Assembly (NCBI GenBank): GCA_010093605.1
Contig: MU004193.1
Span: forward strand, 1,692,579 to 1,756,578
Length of the DNA stretch: 64,000 nucleotides
Reading direction: 5' to 3'
From: Lophium mytilinum
Taxonomy: Eukaryota
This document shows positions 35,000 through 60,724 of this stretch, piece by piece; within the stretch, counting starts at the first letter, position 1; each line of letters begins with the position of its first letter. A program made the translations under genes and the position numbers. The notes beneath the pieces were generated by a model. It was not told the origin of the DNA and did not search any database. It saw only the letters and a list, made by a program, of their open reading frames with translations.

Positions 35000-36181
35000 A
35001 TGGAGCTCTCCGGCGCACTCTCGAGTTATGCACAAGAAGAACTGACTCCTTCTATCGGGACAAAATTTGCTGGGGTCCAGCTTACAGAGATACTGAAAGA
35101 CGCTGCGCAGCTGAGGGATCTTGCGATAACAGGCTAGTTTTGAGTAGCGGAGAATATGAAATGAAAGTCACTGATTGAGCAAGCAGTGTCTCGTCGAGGT
35201 GTTGTTTTCTTTAACAACCAAGAACTCACGGTTGCGGACCACAAATCAATTGCCCAGGCTCTCGGATCCGCAGTAGGGAAGCCTCAGGACTCTCATCTCC
35301 ACCGCCATGTGCTGCTCAATGGGTCCGGTGTGACTCTTCAGGACATAGCAGAGGCTGTCGACGACGAGGTCTCGGTCGTCTCGTCAACCGACCGAATCCG
35401 AGTGATGCGAAATCGCGAACATACCAAGTCCTTGATTCCCGGTAGCCACGGATGGCATTCCGACACCTTTTGGGAGAAGATACCCTCCGACTACACTGTT
35501 CTCCATATGCTGGATGTTCCAGAAATTGGCGGTGACACCCTGTGGGCCTCCGGATATGCGGTATATGAAAAGCTCTCCCCGCAATGGCAGCGAATGCTCG
35601 ACGGCACTACAGCACTCTGCGCGACTAAAGACTACGACCATCTCCGTCAACTCATGCGCTACGACTTTGGAGGCGGTGGCCGTGGCTCACCAGAGAACAG
35701 TGGTACTAAGCTTGAAGCCATCCAGCCAGTCATCCGTACCAACCCAGTTACGGGCTGGAAATCTGTCTTTGCGGCCGCACACGCCATTGAGCATGGCTAC
35801 ATCATTGAACTCACCCCCTACGAGAATAACGTAGTGAAAGAGTATCTCCTCAAACTGATCACGCACAACGCAGACCTCCAAGTCCGGCATAGATGGACCA
35901 AGAACGATGTTGCGATTTGGGATAACCGATCCGTCTTCCATCGGGTTAATTTTGACTTCGAGGGATACAGGCGGGCGCATCGCGTTGTCTCGATTGGAGA
36001 GAAGCCGTTTTTCAGCCCTAATTCTTTGTCTAGAAGCGATGGGTTGGCAAGACGGAGAGCGTATGAACTGGAGCAGACTACTAAGAATGCGACACACACA
36101 GAGCAAAAATCGGACGATAGTTCTAAAAGGAAGGTTGAAACCAATGTCATCCAGCTTCCAGTTCAGCGTGCGAGGCTATAA
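35000..36181 (+). CDS. TauD/TfdA family 2-oxoglutarate/Fe(II) dioxygenase
   Basis: LTPSIGTKF.GVQL...LRDLAIT|VSRRGVVFF..Q, WHSD (HxD), GGDTLWASGY, PVIRTNPVTG, WDNRSVFH, R..HRV; intron 35133-35186. A further 5' exon is possible. Confidence 0.92.
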
Positions 36182-39233: not shown

Positions 39234-39895
39234 GGTGGGCTGGTACTTTGGTAGTTTTGCCAGAGAGCAAATTCCGAATGATGAGATGAATGAAGCTTTA
39301 GCTAAAAGTACGAGTACAGGTCGGATGCGCAGGAGATAGTGATTGGAAGAAGCTCATGACTTCATATCTCTTAACAGCTACGCGCTGCATGGAATCTACG
39401 GCGGTATTCAGAAGAGGCTGAAACACCAAAATTAGCCTGGGTTCGTCGTCTTGCATGAGACCAGTGATGAGGCAGAACATCCCTCCCATTCTGTACGCAT
39501 GACTGCAAGTCAGCCCAGTTGTTACACCAAATGAGAATTGGAGCGTCCGGACTGGACACAGTCAGCAGAGCTGAAGGGCTGAAAGCGCCCACCTATCAGC
39601 CTTGGGCGTACAATTAAGCCCGTAAGCAGCGCCATATGCACCTTTTATTGTCGATGTCTGATACGTTGAATGAATCCAGTGGAACGTAAGTCTATTCGAC
39701 TCGATTGATAGGCCGATGAACTCTGCACCTAGTTTGAGGAGGTGTGAGATTTCACCGAGGGCTTGAAACAGCAGCTGAAAGAACTGGACGGAGGGAGTCT
39801 CAACGCAGCCAACCGTCTTATACCTAGCCTCATTGCGCTTTCGAATAACCATTTGTCCCGAGAAAGTTCCCCGAAACTTCAACCAAGCTTTCGTC

Positions 39896-41893
39896 ATGGA
39901 AGCCCCATCGCCCAGCTTTCAAGCCAGCCTCATCCAGCGCGTACTTATCGCTACCTTCCATTTTGTCAATAGATTTATCCCCTGGTATAAACTTCCCAGT
40001 TACATCGGGGCCATCAATCTCGACGCCCTGCGCATTGAGCTCCGCGCGAATAACCTACACGATGGGTACGCCTCAAGCGCCGCTCAGGGCAATCGAATCG
40101 ACGAGCCCCTGACGAACAAGCGATTTGTAAACGCGCGTAACTCAGATGGTAAATTCAATTCGATTGAGTTGCCTCGGATGGGCTGTTCGGGCGTTCGATT
40201 TGGCCGCAACTTTTCGAGGGTAAACACGCCGAAGCCGACTGATGAACAATTGTGGAATCCGAACCCGCGTATGTTGAGTGAGCAGTTCATGACCAGGAAA
40301 TCGGGAACTTTCATCCCTGCTACAACTTTGAATTTGCTTGCGGCAGCCTGGATCCAATTTCAAGTCCACGACTGGGTGAATCATGAAACTGTGCGTTGAC
40401 TTCCGCGTCTTTATTCCATATCAAGCTTGCTGATCCCTCGTAACCTGCAGAACGACCAAACCTACGATATTCCCCTGCCTCCTGGAGACAAATGGCCGCA
40501 TGGCCATATGAAGCTGCCGCACACCAAGCCTGACAGTACGCTCCACCCATCCGATGTCAAGTGCCCTGGATACAAGAACACCAACACGGGATGGTGGGAT
40601 GGTTCGCAGATTTACGGATCCAGCGAGCCAGCCACGCAAATACTGCGAACTACGCACGCCGACGGCAAGCTATTGGTCACAAAAGAGGGCAGGGAGTCAT
40701 TCTTGCCTCGCGATGCTGCGGGAAACGTAATGACCGGGTTCAACGACAACTGGTGGATAGGTATGGAGATGCTGCATACGCTATTTGGGTGGGAGCATAA
40801 TGCGATCTGCGATATGCTGCGCGGTTCGTATCCAGATATGCCGGGGTAAGGTTTTATTTGCCGCAGAAGAGACGCATCATCTAACTGTGAGTTTAGGGAT
40901 GCAATCTTTGACAAAGCCCGCCTCGTCAACTGCGCGCTCATGGCGAAAATACACACTGTAGAATGGACGCCTGCAATATTAGCACATCCTACCCTACAAG
41001 TTGGTATGAATGCAAACTGGTGGGGCCTTGTTGGCGAGAAATTGACAAAGCTCTTGGGACGAATCTCTAAGACGAGCGAAGTTATCAGCGGGATTCCTGG
41101 CTCCGGGGTCGACCAGTTCGGAGTGCCATACTCCCTTACAGAGGAGTTCGTGTCAGTATACAGAATGCACGCCCTCGTGCCCAACAACATTGCGTTCTTC
41201 AGCGCCACGAACGGCGAGCACAAGTCAACCATTCCCGTTGAGAAAACGCTGTTCACAGAGTCGCAGGCCCCGCTCGACGATGGATTATCGTTTGCAGACA
41301 CGTTCTACTCCTTTGGCATCAATTACCCTGGGGCTATTACGAACTTCAACTATCCCGACTTCCTACGCAACTTGACCAAACCAGATAGTCAGCACCTGGA
41401 CATGGGCACCGTTGACCTCATTCGTGACCGTGAGCGCGGCGTGCCACGATACAACGAGTTCCGGCGCTTGCTGCGGATGTCGGCACCGAAGACCTTTGTA
41501 GAGTTGACTGGTGGAAATACTGCGCTCGCACAACAGCTCTCCGACGCGTACGATGGCAACGTTGAGCTCGTGGACATGCTGATCGGGTCCCATAGCGAAC
41601 CACTCATCAAGGGGTTCGGCTTTAGCGAGACCGCGTTCCGGATTTTCATTCTGATGGCAAGTAGGCGGCTGAAGAGCGATCGCTTCATTGCCGGGCAATG
41701 GAATGCAGAGACGTACACCAAGGAGGGGTTACACTGGGTACAGTATAACGGGATGAAAGATGTGCTCGGCAGGCACTTTCCAGAGTTAAAGGAGGTGTTG
41801 AAGAGGAGTAAGAATGTGTTTGCGCCGTGGGATAAGTTGGCCGAGTCGTCGAAATACGGCGGCGTAGAAACGAACGCGCCGACGGAAAAGTGA
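39896..41893 (+). CDS. Peroxidase-cyclooxygenase superfamily heme enzyme, alpha-dioxygenase-like
   Basis: AAAWIQFQVHDW (distal His), WWDGSQIYGS, KIHTVEWTPAIL, EEFVSVYRMH (Tyr and proximal His), RDRERGVPRYNEFRR, SETAFRIFILMASRRLKSDRF; introns 40391-40450 and 40846-40896; no P450 fusion. Confidence 0.92.
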
Positions 41894-51421: not shown

Positions 51422-52618
51422 ATAGGCGTTGAGTCGTCGTTACGTGTTTCAGCTCACCTGGAGCGATTTGTCGAAGCTGCCTGTGTTTGATATGGTAAAC
51501 TGACGCCAATCCTCGTATAGATATTCTGCATGGTCTAGATACGGCCTTCTTGGGGTCCTGGTCAACGATGGAGCGAGCTCTACTATTACCGTTCGCTGCT
51601 ATATCATTCCCCGTCCAGATTTGCCCTTCACTTGCTACTTCGCAGGATCAACATGACTCTGCTTTGAGACTTTAAACCACTACGCCCAAGCCATCGTGCT
51701 CTTTCGCCTGCAGGGGCGCAGTCATGGCAGTGTCCATTCCTGGGACAGCCCATCGATGATTCTTTTAGTGACGAGTGCGACGGGAGATGCGACCCCATGG
51801 ACGAAAAGTGTTTTGTGGTGATATAGGCGCGATTGTAGCGAATTTGGGAAAGCGTGAGACGGCAGTGGTCAAGTTGAAGGTTGATGCGTTCTCGGGATGG
51901 GGGGACTGCGGAAGTGCTCAACCATGGCAACCTTATCAAGATGTATTGTTTTACCTCAGACGTGAAGGCGTCTCGTGAATAGACTGAGCAGTAATGAAAT
52001 TAAAGGCTTCACTACATGACTTGTTGCCGACAGAAGTGAAAGACGTCCGATTGAAAAGGAGATACTACGGCTTCCCTCTGAACTTCCGCCCTCATGTGCT
52101 CTTGAGTTACACATATTTAGGTAGCAAAGTAATTAGCCTTGAAGTTTAGAATGCGCTATTGCTATGTTGTCGCTGCATGCTGAGGACCTCTACAGCCGTG
52201 AAACAAGCAAATTGGGGCCAACGCGATTCTCAGCTTCTCTTCGCGGACTACTTCATTGGGCACAAAGACCTTCTTCGCAATGTTTGCGGTCTAACATGTT
52301 TGAGATGATCCAAACCGGGTGGTTGAAGATGGACGATGAGATGAACGCCGAATTAGGATTAGGGCGAATGAGTTCCCGCCGTTTCGTCACCACTGGGGCA
52401 TCTCCGCCGGCAAGCCGAGCGACTTTTGCTTGCCCAGGAGACTCCGCAACACCACAAATCAACCACCACAACCCTCCAAGCTCCCAACCTCCCTCTATTT
52501 GTGCCCTCTTGCGTGCTGTGTCAATGTCTCCACACAGAGGCAGCTGAGCACAAAACCCTCCAACAGCTAGATACCCCATCGATACGACTGCAGGGTTCCT
52601 CACATCCGCGCCGGAGCC

Positions 52619-55089
52619 ATGCGCGGCTCAACCATCGTCCTCAACAAGGCCTGGAACAGCCCTGGGAATGGAGCTCTCTTTTCCAAGATAATACAACGCC
52701 CAATTGCCCCAGCCCATGCCTCGCTGCCCTCCTTCCGCCAACACACGACGTCAACCGCGCTCGCAAACGCCCCGCGACGCCCACCTCTTCAACTCTCGCC
52801 GCGGATCCAGCCTACCTCAATTGCCGGTATTCCTAAATCGACGCTGCTTCCATCGCGGAGGGCATTCTCGATATCAAGAGCATTGGCTGAGGAGCAGCGG
52901 ACATCGCCGCCGGAGAAGCGCAAGCCCAAGTCCTACCGGGACGAGATAAAGGAAAAGGGCATAATCAACATCGAAGAGCATGATCACGAGGAGGAGGTAG
53001 GATTCGCGAAGTCAGAAAAGGCAACCCAGGCGCTGCAGGTCAACCTGAGCGCCAAGCTGAGCAAAGATGGATCAGGGCCGGGCAAACCGGGGAGCATGAG
53101 CGAGGTATGGCGGTTGATCAAGATTGCGCGGCCGGAGCTGGGGACGCTGGGATGGGCCTTTGTGTTCCTGCTCATTTCGTCGGGTGTGTCACTCTCGGTG
53201 CCGTTCTCGATTGGAAAGATTCTGGACATTGCGACCAAGGCAGAGGGATCGACCGACACGCTTTTTGGGCTGGATATGTCTACCTTCTACCTAGTCTTGG
53301 GAGGCGTACTGGCGACTGGAGCGGCGGCGAACTTTGGCCGCATCATCATTCTCAGGGTTGTGGGCGAGAGGATCGTGGCGAGATTGAGGTCGCAGCTGTA
53401 CAGGAAGACGTTTGTACAGAATGCGGAGTTCTTTGATGCGAACCGCGTTGGAGATTTGATCTCGAGATTGGGGTCGGATACTATCATCGTCGGCAAGAGC
53501 ATTACGCAGAACCTATCGGACGGCCTTCGGTCGGTTGTCAGTGGAGCTGCTGGATTCGCCATGATGGGATGGGTGAGCTTGCAGCTAACGGGCATTCTCG
53601 CTCTCGTTGGACCGCCGGTTGCAGTGGCTGCATTCATCTCAGGACGGATGCTTCGCAACATCAGTCGCAAGATCCAGAAGAACCTCGGATCCATGACGAA
53701 AGTCGCTGAAGAGAGATTGGGCAATGTTAGGACCAGTCAGGCATTTGCGGGAGAACAACAAGAAGTTAGTCGATACAACCGTCAGATCAGGAGAGTGTTC
53801 GACCTGGGCAAACGGGAGGCTCTGGTTGCCGCTACGTTCTATGGAAGCACTGGACTAATGGGCAACCTGACGGTCATCGCTGTTCTTTACGTCGGCGGCA
53901 GTATGGTCAAATCAGGAGCAATCACCATTGGAGAGCTATCATCTTTCTTGATGTACACAGCGTATGCTGGGTCCAGCATGGTCGGCCTCTCCGGCTTCTG
54001 GGGAGAGATGATGAAAGGAGTTGGAGCAGCGAGTCGACTTTTCGAGCTCCAGGACCGCAACCCAACCATATCACCGACTGTCGGGGAGCCCGTCAAATCT
54101 GCCCAAGGCCCGATCGAGTTCAAGAACGTGTCCTTCAGCTACCCTACCCGACCTGCTGTCACCATTTTCAGGGATCTCAATTTCACTATTCAGCCGGGTA
54201 CCAACGTCGCCATCGTCGCGCCCAGTGGAGCCGGAAAGTCTACAGTCGCCAGTCTGCTTCTTCGATTCTACATTCCCAACACTGGCCAGATCTTGATCGA
54301 CGGTCGGGACATCACGAAGCTGAACGCCAAACAGCTGCGGAGGAAGATCGGTTTCGTGGGTCAGGAGCCTGTACTCTTCTCTGGGACCATCGCGGAGAAC
54401 ATCGCATATGGTGTGCCGCACGCCACCCGCACTGAGATCGTCACTGCCGCCCGCAAGGCGAATTGCCAATTTATTGGTGATTTCGTAAGTGTCTCTCATT
54501 GGTATATTTCTTTATCACACTGACATGTTCTAGCCCGATGGACTTGAAACCCACGTCGGAGCCCGCGGCACCCAGCTTTCAGGCGGCCAGAAACAGCGCA
54601 TTGCCATCGCCCGCGCGCTGATCAAGCAACCCGACATCCTCATCCTCGACGAAGCAACCAGTATGCACCCTTCCTTTACTCACTTCGTCGCTCTACTAAC
54701 ACCTCATAGGTGCCCTCGACGCTGAGTCTGAGACCCTCGTCAATCAAGCCCTCGGCGTGCTCCTCCGCGAGCAAAACACGACCATTAGCATCGCACATCG
54801 TCTCTCCACGATCAAGCGCTCTGATCGTGTCATCGTCATTTCGGCTGACGGCGACGTCGCTGAGGAGGGCACGTACCGCGAGCTCGCGAATAACCCAGAC
54901 GGGGCGTTCACGAAGCTGATGGAGTGGCAGATTAGTGGGGGCGAAGGAGAAGATAGGGAACTGGTGGTCAAAGGGCCAAAGGTCAGCGAGGAGGAGGAGA
55001 TTGAGGCGGATTTGGAGCAAACTGATGAGGACGAGGCTGTAGAGGTGCCTAAGAGCCAGAAGGGAGGCAAAAGGGATGGAAAGCGGTAG
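52619..55089 (+). CDS. MDL1: Mitochondrial ABC half-transporter, ABCB10/MDL1 family
   Basis: R/S-rich presequence, TMD ([24 protein letters not shown]), Walker [11 protein letters not shown]-loop [36 protein letters not shown]; two introns near 54485-54709. Confidence 0.93.
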
Positions 55090-55784: not shown

Positions 55785-56572
55785 GTTCGGGAGACGCATG
55801 TTGAGGGATATGGGCTTAGATCGCGTACGCATATGGAGCTACTTCTGGTTCAGAACTGAAGCGAAGGGAATGGGCGTTTTCTGCTGGTATCTGCTTGATG
55901 TCTACTCGGGTATAGAGTATGGGACTAGCTAGAACTTTTGGGCTGGAAGATATCGGACTGGATTTGAAGTCCCTGGGGAGTAGGGAGGGATTCACGTCAG
56001 ATATGTCCTTCAACTGGTGGCTGTAAGAGCCTGGGACTTGAATGTATAATTATAAATGGGTTCTATACGCATCATGAAACGAGCGTGATGTTCATGCCAG
56101 CCAGGAGCTGGAGTTGGCTATTTGCGCATTTCTCGAGGTGTCTGTCAGAATATTAGAATACTCCACGATTTCCGTGCTGATCTGCAGTGTTAAAGGGTGT
56201 TTTAAAGTCCGATCGCCAAAATCTTCCTCGGGCTCCCAAGGGATGGCTTTCATTCTGATTCTCAGCCTTGCGCGCAAAGTTGACAGCTCGCACGGGCCTT
56301 TTGTATTGCGCCCTGAATTGACACCTCGCACGGACGGCTGGGGTTCGACCAATCATATAGCTCTGATCATCTATAAACAACTTCTCCTTTCGGCAACGCG
56401 TGGCGTGGTGGGTGGGGTGAACCAGTTGCTCGGGTGGACCGTGAGCTTACGCAATATTCAAGTCCTGGTGTTGGATGTTGTATATAAATGAAGGCATGCC
56501 CGCCATTCGTTGCTGCTGGAACATACGCTTTCGCAAGCACAAACCAGTCAATCTCTCCAAAAGAACGGAACG

Positions 56573-57307
56573 ATGGATCCAATTGTCTTCACACCACGCT
56601 TGAAGCTGACTCTGGTCACCAAGACGGAGCGAGGGAGTCTGGAGCTCGAATGGATGCACGATCTGCGTAGTGATGAAAAGGCTTCGGCCTGGAGGTAAAC
56701 ATTATCCCTTCCGTGTCTTCCGCGACTGACCTTTCCCAGCATATCCGGCTGTTCAAAGACCATCGAAGATACTGAACAAATCATGAAAGGCCTTCTACCC
56801 ACCGCCAAAGGAGAGCAAAAAGCATATAGAGTGGCCTATGCCGTACACGAGATCCTCGAGCCCACGAGTGGTGCCGACATAGAGCAAGCAAAGAAAGCGA
56901 CCAAGTTCATCGGCCTCGTGACTTTGAAATCGTTCCCCGTGGGTGGCCTCGTGTTGCCAGAAGAGTTCGTGCTCCCGGCGGCGGCAGCGACTACGATACT
57001 GACGGTCGAGCTGGCGTACTCGTTCTTACCCGCCGCATGGGGTAGAGGGTATGCGACGGAGTCGTTGCAGGCGTTGTTCGAGGCTGGTAAAAGGGGGCGG
57101 GCGTTTTGGGCACCTTTCGAGAAGGTTTATGTGCGGGTGATTGTGAATGAGGGGAATCCGGCGAGTCAGCGAGTAATGGAGAAGATGGAGAAGAGTGGGA
57201 TGAAGAAGAGGGGGGTTTATGAGTTGGATCATAAACCATTTTTTCTGGGTGGAGAGTGGGTGGAGCACAGTAGTTTGCATATTTTTGGGGTGCACTTGCT
57301 GGAATGA
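56573..57307 (+). CDS. GNAT acetyltransferase (RimJ/RimL-like)
   Basis: IVFTPRLKL, ELAYSFLPAAWGRGYATE (acetyl-CoA motif), NPASQRVMEK; intron 56695-56739; TATA box at 56481. Confidence 0.9.
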
Positions 57308-58477
57308 TGGGTGAGGTTTTGGTAGTGGCGAGTGACGGGGTGGGGTGGTGGTAATGACCAGGTTGTGTGATGCATAACTCTTGAGTGGAGATGTAGATGT
57401 CTGCGTGGGGGTTTGTTAAGCAAGTGCTAAGAATGTTTGGAAATATAGATTGCGATTGGATGTCATTAAATGCAACATTTGTTTCTCTATTCCTTTGTGC
57501 TTTGAAACGAGTAGAACGCGTGACGATGCACCCAGTAGCATCCAAACCTCAAAGATGAACCCAAGCGCCAAAGCTTTCTAAAGAGTGGAACTAGAAAGTC
57601 GGGAAATCCCGCCAGGACGGGAATTTCCAAGCAAGTCAATGGGATTCGCAAGACAAATTAGCGGAACCTAGTCCGCAACCCTACGGCTTGGTAAGGACAG
57701 GCGTGTGGCTGTTCCTGCATGTGACACGAAAAGTGGATGACAGATTATCGACGGAGAGGCTGATATATTGCTAGATGAGGACACGAAAGCTGAGTGGTGG
57801 CTGATGAATTATGTGATGATAGCCCAGTAAGATAATGCACTGTCCGGAAGTGAATGCTGTCATGGGCAATTGGGTCCGGATGACGAGAGAGGGGCAGCAC
57901 GACATTCGAACGACATTATTCCGGGTCGCTGCCCAGCCGAAGCAGAGGGACAGTTGGAAGGACGCAGAGGCTCGACCAGCTCCCCAGCTCCCCACTCCCC
58001 ATCGGTGTGGAAAGTCGGCGGAAATGCATTGGGCGTTATCAGCAGATACAGACAGGCGTTGGGACAGCAGCCGGCACCGTCAGCCGAGGAGCGCCAGAGA
58101 GGAGCGGTAAGACGCGGTTGCATTTCGTTGCGGGTGGTGAGAGAAGGGCCCGGAAGCGTCTTCGGCAGGCAAAAGCGTCCGGACGGCTGGCCTCCGCTGT
58201 CGGTCTGCTGGGTAGTGGTGGTTGGTCAGTTCTGAGCAATTGAATCATCGTGCGGGCTCCAACAAGACTGGCTCCAACCCCATATCAACCGGGAACCACC
58301 ACCTCGACATCATCTCCCGCCATCTGCCCTATTCCTACCCACCGACCTCCAATTCACCAGTTCGCATTCCCTCCCACCGTGTCGTTGCTTAGCCGGACCC
58401 GATTCACAGTCGCGCGGGGGGCGCCGACGTTGTTCTCGCTCTCGCCACCCTTGCGGCGCTGCAGCCATCGCGAATTC

Positions 58478-58510
58478 GATCTGATAAAAAGTAAGCCCAA
58501 AATCTGATAA
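58478..58510 (+). promoter_or_regulatory. Tandem ATCWGATAA boxes (SreA/Sre1 iron-repressor consensus)
   Basis: GATCTGATAA at 58478-58487 and AATCTGATAA at 58501-58510, about 220-250 bp upstream of the reductase ATG. Confidence 0.6.
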
Positions 58511-58728
58511 CAACTGCACTCAAAAACTCCCGTCGCACTTCTCCGCATCCCGCGGGGGGAGAATATTCTGCCCGCCAGATCAATGCAGCTTTTCCTCCCA
58601 CACCCTTCATTGACCCCTTAACAAGACGCCCTCGCTGACCATGGCGCTCCGTCCATCTAGCCTCGTTCTTTGTCGCCAGCACCTCCTTCTCCCGCACACT
58701 CTCCAAACTCCCACCCTTACAGCCCACC

Positions 58729-60724
58729 ATGGCCGCTGCCGACCCCCAGCATCACCATCGCCGCATTCCGTCCTCCTCGACCTCTCATCCTCATGATCCC
58801 ATACCATGCGAACCGAAGGAAATCCCGCAATTGGCCCTGTCGCCGTCCCAGCCCGACCACATCTCTCCGCGATCCTCCGGCGAGTCGGTCGAATGGTCCA
58901 GTGATGTTGACTCCGAGGCCCCATCGACCCCCAATACGGAGCCGCAGATGGACGAGCTGGTCGACCGCTTGGAAGACCTGCCTGTCGCGGCTGTGAACTT
59001 CGACAGCCAGTCTCGACCGCGACGAGCCTCCACTACCCTCATCTCAGAGAGCCCCGCAGATATCAGACGGCTGCTGGGCGATAGCGAGACAGCGACGAAG
59101 CTAATCAGCCAGTGCTGTGGCGGTGGATGCTGTTTGCTGAATACACTCATTCCCGATACGGCCGCTCCGGGCTACGACCCTGTAGTCATTCCCGACAATA
59201 AGGCCTTCCGGAGCCTGAACCTGCGCATTGGTCCTCTCGGCCTGGCTACCGAGCTTCAGAATGTCACGCCTCTACCGCCAGTCACACTCTCTTTTGAGCC
59301 GGTACCCGCTACCGAGGACAAACATGTTTCAGCCGTCCACACGCAGCCTCCGAGCTACGTCCAGCCACATCCTCCCTACAATGTCTATTCTGCTCCCATC
59401 CATCATGCACGCGAATTGACGAAGCCCGGCGCCGAGAAGCGGACGTTTCACTTTGACATCGATGTCACCGACTACCCAGACGAAGGAGGCGTCGATTTCA
59501 AGGTCGGAGGTGCCATCGGTATCTGTCCACCAAACGCACAGGAGATAGTGGACGAGCTATTCGACGTCCTCTGCATACCCAAGTTTGTGCGAGACAAGCC
59601 AGTTCTACTTAAGACTCAGAGTGGACGATGGCCTACCATTTGGGGAGCAGACGAGCCAAGAGAACTCGTTACAACACGTCGCGAACTTTTGACGTGGTGT
59701 GCGGACGTTCAAAGCCACCCACCCACGAAGAACATCCTCCGTCTCATGGCCGAGTACGCCGATGCCCCAAATGAGAAGAAGATCCTTCTCTATCTCACGT
59801 CCGCCCAAGGCCAGGCTACCTTCTGCGACCTCCGAACAACCTCCCACCTCACCGTCGCTCAGCTGCTTAGTGCTTTCCCATCCTCCAAGCCACCACTCGC
59901 AGCCCTGCTGTCTGTCCTCACCCAACTGATGCCACGCTTCTACTCCCTCTCCAACGATCCACATGTCTCGTCCGCTCGCCCTGGCCTCCCCGGCGGCCGT
60001 CGCCTTATCGAAATGGCCGTCACTGTTCACGAAACCCCTGACTGGCATACCCCGGGTACGCCGCGCACTGGCGTTGGTAGTGGATTCATGGAACGGACTG
60101 CCCATGCCTTCATTGCTGCTGAAAGCGAAGGCATCAATCCACGCGAAGTTCTCGACCTTCGCGTTCCCATGTTCCGCGGTCTTATGGCAAATCCACTCTC
60201 TCGCGAATTTGGTGGAGAAGGACCCATGATGTTGATTGGTGCCGGTGTCGGAATGGCGCCCTTCCGCGGCTTCATCCTCAACCGCCTCAAGAACGCCAAC
60301 TGCGCCAACAAAATCTGGCTAGTGCAAGGCGTTCGTGATTCTCTCCTCGACGAGATCTACTCCGGTGAGCTGGGCGACCATGAGGCAGAGATCAAGCATG
60401 TTGTTCAGAGTCGTAAGCCGCAGAAACACCATGGTGAGGCAAAGTACGTACAGGATGAGGTGCGCCAGCAGGCAGATATTGTCTGGTTCGTTATCAATGC
60501 TCTGGATGGTCGCATCTTTGTGTGCGGCAGTAGCAAAGGAATGGGCGAGGGCGTTGAGCAGGCACTGATAGATGTGGCTATGGATAAAGGTGGATTGGGA
60601 GAAAAGGAGGCAAAGGAATTTTGGGAGCAGAAGAAGGGGGATGGGCAGTATATTGCTGTAAGTTTCCCCCCCTATGAAACATCGAACCGTGCAAGTGCTA
60701 ACTTCGATATAGGAAACGTGGTAG
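58729..60724 (+). CDS. FAD/NADPH-binding oxidoreductase (cytochrome P450 reductase / methionine synthase reductase-like C-terminal module, no flavodoxin domain)
   Basis: PRFYSLS, GVGSGFM, MLIGAGVGMAPFRGF, KYVQD, IFVCGS..M; intron 60658-60712 gives a terminal ETW*; N-terminal CCGGGCC. Confidence 0.9.

What the first reader, a model, noticed from the sequence alone, without database searches (positions are those of the whole stretch)
58478..60724. Two perfect SreA iron boxes upstream of a flavodoxin-less diflavin reductase carrying a CCGGGCC motif
Seen: RATCTGATAA twice, 23 bp apart (58478 and 58501). The downstream protein has only the FAD/NADPH module, and where the FMN domain would be it has a disordered N-terminus with CCGGGCC. 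Known: ATCWGATAA is the binding consensus of the GATA-type iron repressors SreA/Sre1. Inference: an iron-starvation-induced reductase whose Cys cluster binds Fe or an Fe-S cluster as electron acceptor or sensor, for example for reductive iron release from siderophores. This would be an uncharacterised component of fungal iron homeostasis.
Basis: partly seen in the sequence, partly recalled or inferred. Interest (0 to 1): 0.7.

Follow-up and report, generated by a model that had tools for sequence, protein, structure and literature searches.

The report
Iron-repressed FMN-less fungal reductase gene
A fungal gene for an NADPH/FAD reductase that has lost its flavodoxin part and carries an almost invariant four-cysteine motif sits behind two conserved binding sites for the iron repressor SreA, which marks it as an iron-starvation gene whose biochemical job is still unknown.

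Summary
ATCTGATAA occurs only at 58479 and 58502 in the 64 kb window. The gene (Lophium mytilinum) encodes FAD_binding_1 plus NAD_binding_1, with no flavodoxin domain. CCGGGCC is residues 129-135.

The boxes are conserved. In 80 orthologous metagenome loci, exact ATCWGATAA is at 1.1/kb in the 1 kb upstream, against 0 in 155 kb of coding sequence and 0.012/kb downstream. Of 43 non-redundant loci, 32 carry a box.

A spliced contig shows a 170-nt 5'UTR intron. Box 1 ends 3 nt before its donor and box 2 lies inside it.

The iron link is already in print for the likely A. fumigatus orthologue, but it was never discussed. Afu4g10100 is one of the 49 SreA-regulon genes (PMC2610380, supplement). It also co-purifies with the glutaredoxin GrxD, most strongly without iron (PMC6762210, Table 1).

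CCGGGCC is present in 351 of 352 full-length Pezizomycotina homologues. The function is unknown. An Fe-S or iron site replacing FMN is plausible but untested, and a siderophore-reductase role is speculation. The regulation is known. The protein is an uncharacterised variant of diflavin reductases.

The parts
58479..58487 (+). SreA-type box 1, ATCTGATAA (preceded by G at 58478). It lies in the transcribed leader and ends 3 nt before the 5'UTR intron donor.
   Evidence: It is the best-conserved island in the upstream alignment of 12 sequences.
58502..58510 (+). SreA-type box 2, ATCTGATAA (preceded by A at 58501). It lies inside the 5'UTR intron.
   Evidence: A second box is present in 12 of 43 non-redundant orthologous loci.
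57900..58490 (+). Transcribed leader (5'UTR exon 1). Its 3' end at 58490 is shown. Its start (the TSS) is unknown.
   Evidence: The run X1 contig lies without a break on 57900-58490 and runs further upstream over the neighbouring GNAT gene, so it cannot place the TSS.
58491..58660 (+). 5'UTR intron of 170 nt: GTAAGC donor, GCTGAC branch-like site at 58633-58638, TAG acceptor. It holds box 2 and an upstream ATG.
   Evidence: GT..AG joint from 58490 to 58661 in the X1 contig. Sequence.
58641..58643 (+). Upstream ATG (context GACCATGG) inside the 5'UTR intron. If the intron were retained, a 51-codon uORF would overlap the main ATG out of frame.
   Evidence: Splicing removes it, and the spliced leader has no ATG in its last 268 nt.
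58661..58728 (+). 5'UTR exon 2.
58729..60657 (+). Coding exon 1, residues 1-643.
   Evidence: 100% identity to P0002.
59020..59034 (+). RRAST, residues 98-102 (R-x-R-R-A-S-T with R96). It fits a basophilic-kinase consensus and is at least 95% conserved in 38 Pezizomycotina sequences.
   Evidence: The kinase reading is inference from the recalled consensus RRxS / RxRxxS.
59113..59133 (+). CCGGGCC, residues 129-135: two vicinal Cys pairs three residues apart.
   Evidence: Invariant in A1. Present in 351 of 352 full-length homologues. Variants keep the CC-x3-CC core.
59377..60087 (+). FAD_binding_1 domain (residues 217-453), including R403-x-Y405-S406.
   Evidence: E 9.4e-46. Invariant columns.
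60232..60558 (+). NAD_binding_1 domain (residues 502-610), including the G-x-G-x-APFRGF motif at 506-515.
   Evidence: E 8e-12..
60658..60712 (+). Intron of 55 nt (GTAAGT, TGCTAAC, TAG).
   Evidence: GT..AG joint in the X1 contig. Sequence.
60713..60724 (+). Last exon, E-T-W-stop. The C-terminal Trp is typical of the CPR family.
   Evidence: W646 is at least 90% conserved.

Best explanation
The gene encodes an NADPH-dependent FAD reductase found across Ascomycota. It descends from diflavin reductases but has lost the FMN (flavodoxin) domain. It is the orthologue of S. pombe SPAC1783.01/SPBC12C2.03c and, by the published orthology table, of A. fumigatus Afu4g10100.

Regulation. Transcription is shut off in iron-replete cells by the GATA repressor SreA. 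SreA binds the two ATCTGATAA boxes that straddle the exon-1/intron-1 junction of the 5' leader, so the enzyme is made during iron starvation.

Mechanism (inferred). NADPH reduces the FAD. In place of FMN, the one-electron relay is an iron or [2Fe-2S] site held by the two vicinal cysteine pairs (CC-x3-CC) on a flexible N-terminal arm. The site is loaded by, or shared with, the monothiol glutaredoxin GrxD. The electrons go to a ferric substrate in the cytosol.

How likely each step is:
- Shown here: the boxes, their conservation, the gene model, the domain make-up and the motif conservation.
- Shown in print for the A. fumigatus protein: SreA-dependent iron repression and co-purification with GrxD.
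- Inferred: SreA binding in this species (about 0.85); metal or Fe-S binding by the motif (about 0.4); a ferric or ferri-siderophore substrate (about 0.2).

The overall confidence is for the statement as a whole, mechanism included.
For: Boxes and their conservation
- The window holds only two ATCWGATAA sites. They are 23 bp apart, 250 and 227 bp before the ATG.
- In 80 orthologous loci, exact boxes number 61 in 55,085 bp of the 1 kb upstream. They number 18 in 83,859 bp at -1000 to -3000, 0 in 155,125 bp of gene and 2 in 163,340 bp downstream.
- 32 of 43 non-redundant loci with at least 700 bp of upstream sequence have at least one box, and 12 have two or more.
- 48 of 85 upstream WGATAA sites carry the ATC prefix, against 1 of 118 elsewhere. 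The sites are therefore the SreA-type extended motif and not generic GATA.
- Neighbouring genes differ between loci. The upstream intergenic region holds no recognisable or conserved ORF. The boxes therefore belong to this gene.

Published data on Afu4g10100
- 'FAD binding domain protein' falls to log2 -2.75 / -2.13 / -1.66 at 30 / 60 / 120 min after iron addition in wild type, but only to -0.79 / -0.50 / -0.42 in the sreA mutant. It sits in the same cluster as hapX, freB, mirC and amcA (PMC2610380, Table S1).
- Its upstream 2 kb holds 9 matrix hits to ATCWGATAA, 3 of them exact (Table S2).
- It co-purifies with GrxD-Venus at log2 7.62 (-Fe), 4.11 (+Fe) and 2.49 (high Fe), and not with GrxD lacking the Trx domain (PMC6762210, Table 1).
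- That table names SPAC1783.01 as its S. pombe orthologue. I find SPAC1783.01 (P0279) inside the family.

Protein
- The catalytic motifs are kept: R403-x-Y405-S406, G506-x-G508-x-APFRGF, C599-G600, the S561-R562...Y573-V-Q NADPH-type stretch and the C-terminal W646.
- No family member examined has a flavodoxin domain, whereas 21 of the 23 nearest outgroup representatives do. The family forms one clade with SH-aLRT 100.
- CCGGGCC is present in 120/120, 119/119 and 112/113 full-length homologues from three searches. Locus variants (CCGEGCC, CCGDGCC, CCGEDCC, CCGAAANCC) keep all four Cys.

Precedents
- In FhuF, a bacterial hydroxamate-siderophore reductase, two adjacent Cys bind different Fe atoms of a 2Fe-2S cluster (bioRxiv 10.1101/2023.07.04.547673, passages).
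Against: - There are no expression, binding or biochemical data for this species.
- 11 of 43 loci have no exact box within 1 kb. By nearest labelled clade, boxes are present in only 3 of 9 Eurotiomycete-like and 1 of 5 Lecanoromycete-like loci, and 8 of those loci have none within 3 kb.
- The boxes lie in the transcribed leader and its intron, not in a classical upstream promoter, and the TSS is unknown.
- CCAAT, the partner site for HapX/CBC, is not enriched upstream (1.82/kb against 2.25-2.31/kb).
- Orthology to Afu4g10100 is indirect. I never held its sequence.
- The authors of the GrxD pull-down themselves note post-lysis artefacts for other hits. The same trap enriched a metallothionein, so any Cys-rich protein might stick.
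- The Cys motif is absent from the S. pombe, Pneumocystis and Neolecta members, so the enzyme can work without it.
- No iron-related gene is a conserved neighbour.
- No structure model could be made, so the geometry of the motif relative to the FAD is unknown.
Confidence: 0.4

Rival explanations
1. The regulation is as above, but the four cysteines are an S-acylation (palmitoylation) site. The site tethers the soluble reductase to a membrane, taking over the role of the N-terminal membrane anchor of cytochrome P450 reductase, so that the FAD passes electrons directly to a membrane-bound acceptor.
For: The cysteines are clustered and flanked by hydrophobic residues (L-I-x-Q-CCGGGCC-L-L-x-T-L) within a disordered arm. 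That resembles known Cys-string acylation sites (recalled, not tested). The FAD/NADPH module is of the CPR type.
Against: In a whole clade the central residues become acidic (CCGEGCC, CCGDGCC). The A. fumigatus protein was recovered with cytosolic/nuclear GrxD. No membrane partner is suggested by conserved neighbours. No tool here tests acylation.
Confidence: 0.2
2. The regulation is as above, but the motif is a thiol/disulfide switch or a soft-metal (Cu/Zn) site similar to a metallothionein. In that case the GrxD co-purification reflects a mixed disulfide or non-specific capture of a Cys-rich protein, and no shared Fe-S cluster is involved.
For: The same GFP-trap enriched the metallothionein CmtA (log2 up to 13.79). 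Binding of Afu4g10100 needed the Trx domain of GrxD. The authors consider some hits to be post-lysis artefacts. CC pairs are typical of metallothioneins (recalled).
Against: Enrichment follows iron status (7.62, then 4.11, then 2.49) in the same way as HapX. FNR/CPR-type flavoproteins normally feed one-electron acceptors and do not reduce disulfides (established knowledge of the family). The gene is co-regulated with iron-uptake genes.
Confidence: 0.15
3. The two GATA boxes are not SreA sites. They are bound by another GATA factor, such as the nitrogen regulator AreA/NIT2, which prefers paired GATA elements. Alternatively they are conserved for a reason tied to the adjacent splice donor.
For: Two GATA cores within 30 bp fit the recalled NIT2 requirement. 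In the window and in 11 of 12 Dothideomycete-like loci, a donor-like hexamer lies within 25 nt of the proximal box.
Against: The conserved unit is the full ATCWGATAA: 48 of 85 upstream sites against 1 of 118 in control sequence carry the ATC prefix. The review PMC10500206 gives this as the SreA consensus. The A. fumigatus gene is SreA-dependent by microarray. In 0 of 15 more distant loci is a donor within 25 nt of a box, yet the boxes persist.
Confidence: 0.07
4. The protein is what many databases call it: methionine synthase reductase, or a sulfite reductase alpha-like flavoprotein.
For: Source names include 'methionine synthase reductase' and 'sulfite reductase alpha subunit-like flavoprotein'. 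The PDB match to human MTRR has E 3.6e-28 and covers residues 177-638.
Against: The FMN domain that MTRR and CysJ need to reach their partners is absent. The scores against the CysJ equivalog models are far below their cut-offs (92 bits against 668). The family is a separate long-stemmed clade. Ascomycetes use cobalamin-independent methionine synthase (recalled, not tested here). Iron/SreA control does not fit either role.
Confidence: 0.03

Closest known systems
Aspergillus fumigatus Afu4g10100, 'FAD binding domain protein' (SreA regulon member, GrxD co-purifying protein)
   Same: It carries the same product name as the Eurotiales family members (P0509, P0510). Its published S. pombe orthologue lies in the family. 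It is repressed by iron through SreA, and its upstream region is rich in ATCWGATAA.
   Different: Orthology is indirect because I did not hold its sequence. Its boxes lie at -527 to -1702, whereas here they lie at -227 and -250. It appears only in a table and in supplements and has never been studied functionally.
S. pombe SPAC1783.01 and SPBC12C2.03c ('methionine synthase reductase, predicted')
   Same: They are in the same clade (SH-aLRT 100), have the same two Pfam domains and lack a flavodoxin domain.
   Different: They are 40-46% identical to the window's protein. They lack CCGGGCC and the RRAST block. They arose by a duplication within the lineage. I found no paper on their function.
Diflavin reductases: cytochrome P450 reductase, methionine synthase reductase, Tah18/NDOR1
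   Same: The FAD/NADPH module is shared, with the R-x-Y-S and G-x-G-x-APFRGF motifs, the Cys-Gly pair and the C-terminal Trp.
   Different: The FMN/flavodoxin domain is missing. It is replaced by about 176 residues that match no family. 21 of the 23 nearest outgroup representatives keep the flavodoxin domain.
Tah18-Dre2 (NDOR1-anamorsin) electron chain of cytosolic Fe-S assembly
   Same: As a working analogy, an NADPH flavoprotein feeds a Cys-ligated cluster that sits on a disordered protein and is supplied by the monothiol glutaredoxin. Dre2 was also pulled down by GrxD.
   Different: Here both parts would be on one polypeptide. There is no CIAPIN1 domain and no FMN domain, and cluster binding is not shown.
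Bacterial ferric-siderophore reductases: FhuF (2Fe-2S, C-C-X10-C-X2-C) and the flavin SIP family (ViuB/YqjH)
   Same: All are iron-repressed. FhuF uses vicinal cysteines that ligate different Fe atoms. SIPs are flavoproteins of the FNR type (abstract listing).
   Different: There is no sequence relationship. The Cys spacing is CC-X3-CC and not C-C-X10-C-X2-C, and Pfam finds no SIP domain. A siderophore substrate is not shown for this fungal family.

Membership tests
Ascomycete FMN-less reductase family (Afu4g10100 / SPAC1783.01) | FAD_binding_1 plus NAD_binding_1, with no Flavodoxin_1 | tested here: met
   for the window's protein. for 6 further family members. All 120+120+120 listed homologues carry only PF00667 and PF00175.
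Ascomycete FMN-less reductase family (Afu4g10100 / SPAC1783.01) | Falls in one clade with the S. pombe, Neurospora and Eurotiales members, apart from flavodoxin-bearing relatives | tested here: met
   Quick ML tree of 35 rows. The family lies on one side of a branch with SH-aLRT 100 and stem length 1.84. The careful search did not finish.
Ascomycete FMN-less reductase family (Afu4g10100 / SPAC1783.01) | Direct sequence orthology to Afu4g10100 | not testable with these tools
   The A. fumigatus sequence was not among the listed hits. The link rests on the orthology column of PMC6762210 Table 1 and on the shared product name.
Diflavin reductase (CPR / MTRR / Tah18) | FAD/NADPH motifs: R-x-Y-S, G-x-G-x-APFRGF, Cys-Gly, C-terminal aromatic residue | tested here: met
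   R403, Y405, S406, G506, G508, A510-F515, C599, G600 and W646 are invariant or at least 90% conserved.
Diflavin reductase (CPR / MTRR / Tah18) | N-terminal FMN-binding flavodoxin domain | tested here: not met
   No PF00258 hit. Residues 1-216 match nothing even at E 10. The protein is therefore not a diflavin reductase and not MTRR.
SreA (GATA iron repressor) regulon | ATCWGATAA sites in the 5' region | tested here: met
   There are two exact sites. They are conserved in 32 of 43 non-redundant orthologous loci. The ATC prefix is specific to the upstream region.
SreA (GATA iron repressor) regulon | Iron repression that is lost in an sreA mutant | not testable with these tools
   This is shown only for Afu4g10100 (PMC2610380, Table S1). 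No run on record as RNA, and no iron series, was available for this species.
SreA (GATA iron repressor) regulon | Physical binding of SreA to the sites | not testable with these tools
   This needs ChIP or EMSA.
FhuF-type ferric-siderophore reductase | C-C-X10-C-X2-C 2Fe-2S motif | tested here: not met
   The motif here is CC-X3-CC.
Siderophore-interacting protein (SIP, ViuB/YqjH) | FAD_binding_9 / SIP domains | tested here: not met
   Only PF00667 and PF00175 were found.
Fe-S protein | A bound iron-sulfur cluster | not testable with these tools
   This needs purified protein. The structure and complex predictions could not be run.

The most novel reading that the evidence does not exclude
This family is the cytosolic NADPH:ferric-siderophore reductase of ascomycetes, acting on ferricrocin- or ferrichrome-type siderophores. 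[quoted passage not shown] In this reading, a minimal CC-x3-CC [2Fe-2S] or iron site on a flexible arm replaces the FMN domain as electron relay, and it hands the released Fe(II) directly to the glutaredoxin GrxD, the cell's iron sensor. The SreA boxes at the leader intron, together with an intron-borne upstream ATG, would add a second off-switch through intron retention.
Probability: 0.15. Interest if true: 0.85.

Novelty: new variant of a known kind. Interest (0 to 1): 0.6.

Why it matters
Fungi store and move iron on hydroxamate siderophores. Esterases explain iron release only for fusarinine-type siderophores and enterobactin. A reductive route is known in bacteria but, according to the 2023 review read here, not in fungi.

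This gene family has several properties that make it a concrete and cheap-to-test candidate for that gap, or for another unknown step between NADPH and the cytosolic iron pool:
- It is switched on with the siderophore genes.
- It is conserved across Ascomycota.
- It has a competent NADPH/FAD module.
- It carries a near-invariant four-cysteine motif.
- Its A. fumigatus member associates with the iron-sensing glutaredoxin.

If instead the motif is a lipid anchor or a thiol switch, the family is still an unstudied member of the core iron-starvation response. The placement of repressor sites at a 5'UTR intron boundary is also an unusual promoter layout that deserves a TSS map.

Tried and rejected
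Tools that gave nothing
- No whole genome is held for the window, so no genome-wide box census or search for sreA/grxD was possible.
- Complex prediction (two copies of residues 95-175 with 2Fe-2S) was never accepted because the queue was full. There is no result of any kind.
- The look-up of sequencing runs listed no RNA holder. Both listed runs are only guessed to be RNA. The X1 contig is spliced at two GT..AG sites, so I treat it as RNA-derived. It says nothing on expression level, on iron response or on the TSS.
- The search of earlier findings gave nothing.
- The protein atlas search on residues 90-216 gave only a 0.76 hit named 'FAD binding domain-containing protein', which is below the level that counts.

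Papers and supplements
- The HapX paper supplement could not be read. The mBio 2023 supplements (4 files, 4,738 characters) do not mention the gene. Those unread tables could still bear on HapX or SrbA control.
- Locus tags of six orthologues were found in 0 papers, and SPBC12C2.03c in 0 papers.

Analyses with a negative or unfinished result
- Pfam on 65 of the 137 flank ORFs computed from 36 loci found no conserved or iron-related neighbour.
- CCAAT is not enriched upstream.
- The intergenic ORFs have no Pfam hit and no conservation, so I rejected a divergent gene sharing the boxes.
- A Markov simulation of box pairs timed out and was replaced by a Poisson estimate.
- The careful tree search did not finish, so the quick tree is used.
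- The idea that the upstream ATG gives a mitochondrial presequence isoform is rejected. It is out of frame, no usable donor follows it, and it is spliced out.
Full report
WHAT IS THERE

GATCTGATAA starts at 58478 and AATCTGATAA at 58501, both on the + strand and 23 bp apart. Their ATCTGATAA cores are the only matches to ATCWGATAA on either strand of the 64 kb window. The count alone is unremarkable: shuffles give a mean of 0.89, and 23 of 100 reach two. Two sites within 23 bp are expected about 3e-4 times per window (Poisson estimate from that mean). Generic HGATAR is not enriched in the window (152 found, 157.5 expected).

The open frame downstream starts at ATG 58729 and runs to 60657. After a 55-nt intron it ends with E-T-W-stop at 60724. 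The 646-residue product is 100% identical to a protein that its source names as a hypothetical protein of Lophium mytilinum, a dothideomycete.

GENE MODEL AND POSITION OF THE BOXES

One contig of run X1 lies on the region with two GT..AG skips. One is the predicted coding intron, 60658-60712. The other is a 170-nt intron in the 5' leader, 58491-58660. The run's kind is only guessed to be RNA. Two canonical splice joints at predicted sites are best explained by spliced RNA.

Box 1 therefore lies in leader exon 1 and ends 3 nt before the splice donor. Box 2 lies inside the leader intron. The contig continues upstream across the neighbouring GNAT gene, so it cannot give the transcription start. 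The intron also holds an ATG in strong context (58641). It sits between the branch-like GCTGAC and the acceptor, and splicing removes it. The spliced leader has no upstream ATG in its last 268 nt.

The 1.2 kb between the GNAT gene and the boxes holds no ORF with a Pfam match and none conserved near orthologues. The boxes therefore do not serve a divergent gene.

ARE THE BOXES FUNCTIONAL?

I fetched 80 metagenome loci that encode orthologues of 56-82% identity. Counts of exact ATCWGATAA were as follows:
- 61 in 55,085 bp of the first kilobase upstream (1.1/kb);
- 18 in 83,859 bp further upstream;
- none in 155,125 bp of coding region;
- 2 in 163,340 bp downstream.

Of 52 loci with at least 700 bp upstream, 43 are non-redundant. 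Of these, 32 have at least one box within 1 kb and 12 have two or more.

The conserved unit is the extended motif. 48 of 85 upstream WGATAA sites are preceded by ATC, against 1 of 118 in gene plus downstream sequence. In an alignment of 12 upstream regions, box 1 is the best-conserved island.

Flanking genes differ from locus to locus (GH47, Cdc37, arginyl-tRNA synthetase, annexin, MOSC and others), and none is iron-related. This comes from 65 of the 137 flank ORFs computed.

Some results count against a universal rule. 11 of the 43 loci lack a box within 1 kb. By nearest labelled relative, boxes are present in 15 of 16 Dothideomycete-like loci, 7 of 7 in a P0124-like group and 6 of 6 Sordariomycete-like loci. 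They are present in only 3 of 9 Eurotiomycete-like and 1 of 5 Lecanoromycete-like loci. CCAAT is not enriched.

WHAT IS ALREADY IN PRINT

The review PMC10500206 (passages read) gives ATCWGATAA as the SreA consensus. The motif was derived in Schrettl et al. 2008 (PMC2610380; passages and supplement parts 1 and 19 read).

Table S1 of that paper lists Afu4g10100, 'FAD binding domain protein', in cluster 3 with hapX, freB, mirC and amcA. After iron is added to starved cells, its log2 ratio in wild type is -2.75, -2.13 and -1.66 at 30, 60 and 120 min. In the sreA mutant it is -0.79, -0.50 and -0.42. It is one of the 49 genes of the published SreA regulon.

Table S2 lists nine matrix hits to ATCWGATAA in its upstream 2 kb, three of them exact, between -527 and -1702. 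The count is cross-checked by the chromosome IV mean of 4.5 for two genes in Table S3. The main text never discusses the gene.

In Misslinger et al. 2019 (PMC6762210; section 11 read in full), the same protein co-purifies with Venus-tagged GrxD at log2 7.62 without iron, 4.11 with iron and 2.49 at high iron. It does not co-purify with GrxD lacking its thioredoxin domain. Its S. pombe orthologue is given as SPAC1783.01. Again it appears only in the table.

I did not hold the A. fumigatus sequence, so the link is indirect. SPAC1783.01 (P0279) is a member of the family found with the window's protein. Eurotiales members also carry the same product name.

The only other mention I found is lower protein abundance in conidia of a dicer mutant (PMC10275271, one passage). 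Searches for the gene names, six orthologue locus tags and 'siderophore reductase' found no functional study.

THE PROTEIN

Pfam finds FAD_binding_1 (residues 217-453) and NAD_binding_1 (502-610) and nothing else. The best solved relatives are cytochrome P450 reductases (E 1.4e-30) and human methionine synthase reductase (E 3.6e-28, aligned from residue 177).

The motifs that define the catalytic module are invariant or nearly so in a 47-sequence alignment. They are R403-x-Y405-S406, G506-x-G508-x-APFRGF, C599-G600, an S561-R562...Y573-V-Q stretch that aligns with the NADPH-type stretch of CPR (the role is recalled), and the C-terminal Trp.

All family members checked lack a flavodoxin domain. 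In contrast, 2 of 3 outgroup representatives and 19 of 20 have one. In a quick maximum-likelihood tree the family is one long-stemmed clade (SH-aLRT 100), and its internal order follows the ascomycete phylogeny: Taphrinomycotina, then early Saccharomycotina (Kockiozyma, Tortispora), then Pezizomycotina. It is therefore an old, vertically inherited, FMN-less offshoot of diflavin reductases. The database names 'methionine synthase reductase' and 'sulfite reductase alpha-like' do not fit.

THE N-TERMINAL ARM

Residues 1-216 match no Pfam family and no solved chain, even at E 10. Residues 1-128 are 55% P/S/T/E/D/Q. The arm is not featureless. In 38 Pezizomycotina sequences the conserved blocks are:
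- PIPxEP (residues 24-29);
- RxRRAST (96-102), which fits a basophilic-kinase site (my inference);
- CCGGGCC (129-135);
- PDNxAF (155-160);
- PPxxVQPHPPY (207-217).

CCGGGCC is present in 120 of 120, 119 of 119 and 112 of 113 homologues of at least 560 residues from three searches. It is also present in Kockiozyma.

Among the 80 loci, 62 have a recognisable anchor. Of these, 51 read CCGGGCC and 11 read variants. The variants include CCGEGCC, CCGDGCC, CCGEDCC and CCGAAANCC, and one reads CCGGGCF. The constrained core is two vicinal Cys pairs three residues apart. The S. pombe, Pneumocystis and Neolecta proteins lack the motif.

HOW IT MOST LIKELY WORKS

I take as well supported (about 0.85) that SreA represses this gene when iron is sufficient, through the two boxes, and that the enzyme is made in iron starvation.

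For the enzyme itself, NADPH to FAD is safe. The next step is inference. A CPR-type module without FMN needs another one-electron acceptor. The only strongly constrained element in the arm is the four-cysteine motif, and the A. fumigatus protein associates with the [2Fe-2S]-carrying glutaredoxin in a way that depends on iron status and on the Trx domain. I therefore favour (about 0.4) an iron or [2Fe-2S] site on the arm as the relay.

There are precedents. In FhuF, adjacent cysteines bind different Fe atoms of a 2Fe-2S cluster (bioRxiv 10.1101/2023.07.04.547673, passages). A paper that I saw only as a reference-list entry (Rossetto et al. 2024, cited in PMC13462969) reports, by its title, that short Cys-rich peptides of HapX and SreA bind 2Fe-2S.

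The final acceptor is unknown. A ferric substrate, perhaps an intracellular ferri-siderophore, would fit the co-regulation and the gap stated in the 2023 review. An old report of NAD(P)H:sideramine reductase activity in Neurospora extracts is recalled only and was not seen here.

RIVALS

- The cysteines may be S-acylated, with their hydrophobic flanks helping membrane contact.
- They may form a thiol switch or a soft-metal site, with the GrxD pull-down being an artefact. The same trap enriched a metallothionein, and the authors discuss post-lysis mixing.
- The boxes may serve another GATA factor. The ATC-prefix result and the sreA-mutant data argue against this.
- The database function, MTRR, fails the FMN-domain test.

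NOVELTY AND VERDICT

The regulatory part is a new instance of something already published. The protein is an uncharacterised variant of a known enzyme class with a striking motif.

Noticed in passing
window 58491-58660 (ATG at 58641); also L002, L005, L007, L011, L013, L014, L016, L019, L020: The 5'UTR intron keeps an ATG in strong context a few bases after the branch-like CTRAC. This holds in the window and in 10 of 10 Pleosporales/Lophium-like loci. The peptides often begin M-[AV]-R and contain LCR. If the intron were retained, the uORF would overlap the main start codon out of frame. This could be an intron-retention off-switch or could mark an internal TSS. It remains unexplained.
   Followed up: partly
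window 58479-58496 and Dothideomycete-like loci: In the window and in 11 of 12 Dothideomycete-like loci, a splice-donor-like hexamer lies within 25 nt of the proximal SreA box. This holds in 0 of 15 more distant loci. In this clade the repressor sites sit at the exon-1/intron-1 boundary of the leader.
   Followed up: partly
window 59020-59034 (residues 98-102): RxRRAST, which fits a PKA/AGC-kinase consensus, lies 28 residues before the Cys motif. It is at least 95% conserved in 38 Pezizomycotina sequences. This suggests phospho-regulation of the arm.
   Followed up: no
window 56492-57307 (+): A GNAT acetyltransferase gene (Acetyltransf_3, E 2.6e-12) lies directly upstream on the same strand. 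The spliced X1 contig runs over both genes. The GNAT gene is not a neighbour of the orthologues in other loci.
   Followed up: partly
window 52571-54523 (+): A half-size ABC transporter. Its closest solved relative is mitochondrial ABCB10 (E 2.6e-119). No SreA box lies near it.
   Followed up: partly
window 35165-36181 (+): A TauD-family dioxygenase (E 6.4e-42). In A. fumigatus a TauD gene (Afu1g17170) is in the SreA regulon. Here no ATCWGATAA lies near the gene.
   Followed up: no
window 39779-41893 (+): Two ORF pieces match animal haem peroxidase (E 6e-14 and 1.4e-55). This is probably a single intron-split fungal dioxygenase/peroxidase gene.
   Followed up: no
L041 / L043 (Paecilomyces-like orthologue): The exact boxes lie about 1.9-2.7 kb upstream of the match instead of within 1 kb. 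This recalls the distal sites of Afu4g10100 (-527 to -1702). Eurotiales may have a longer leader or a more distant control region.
   Followed up: no
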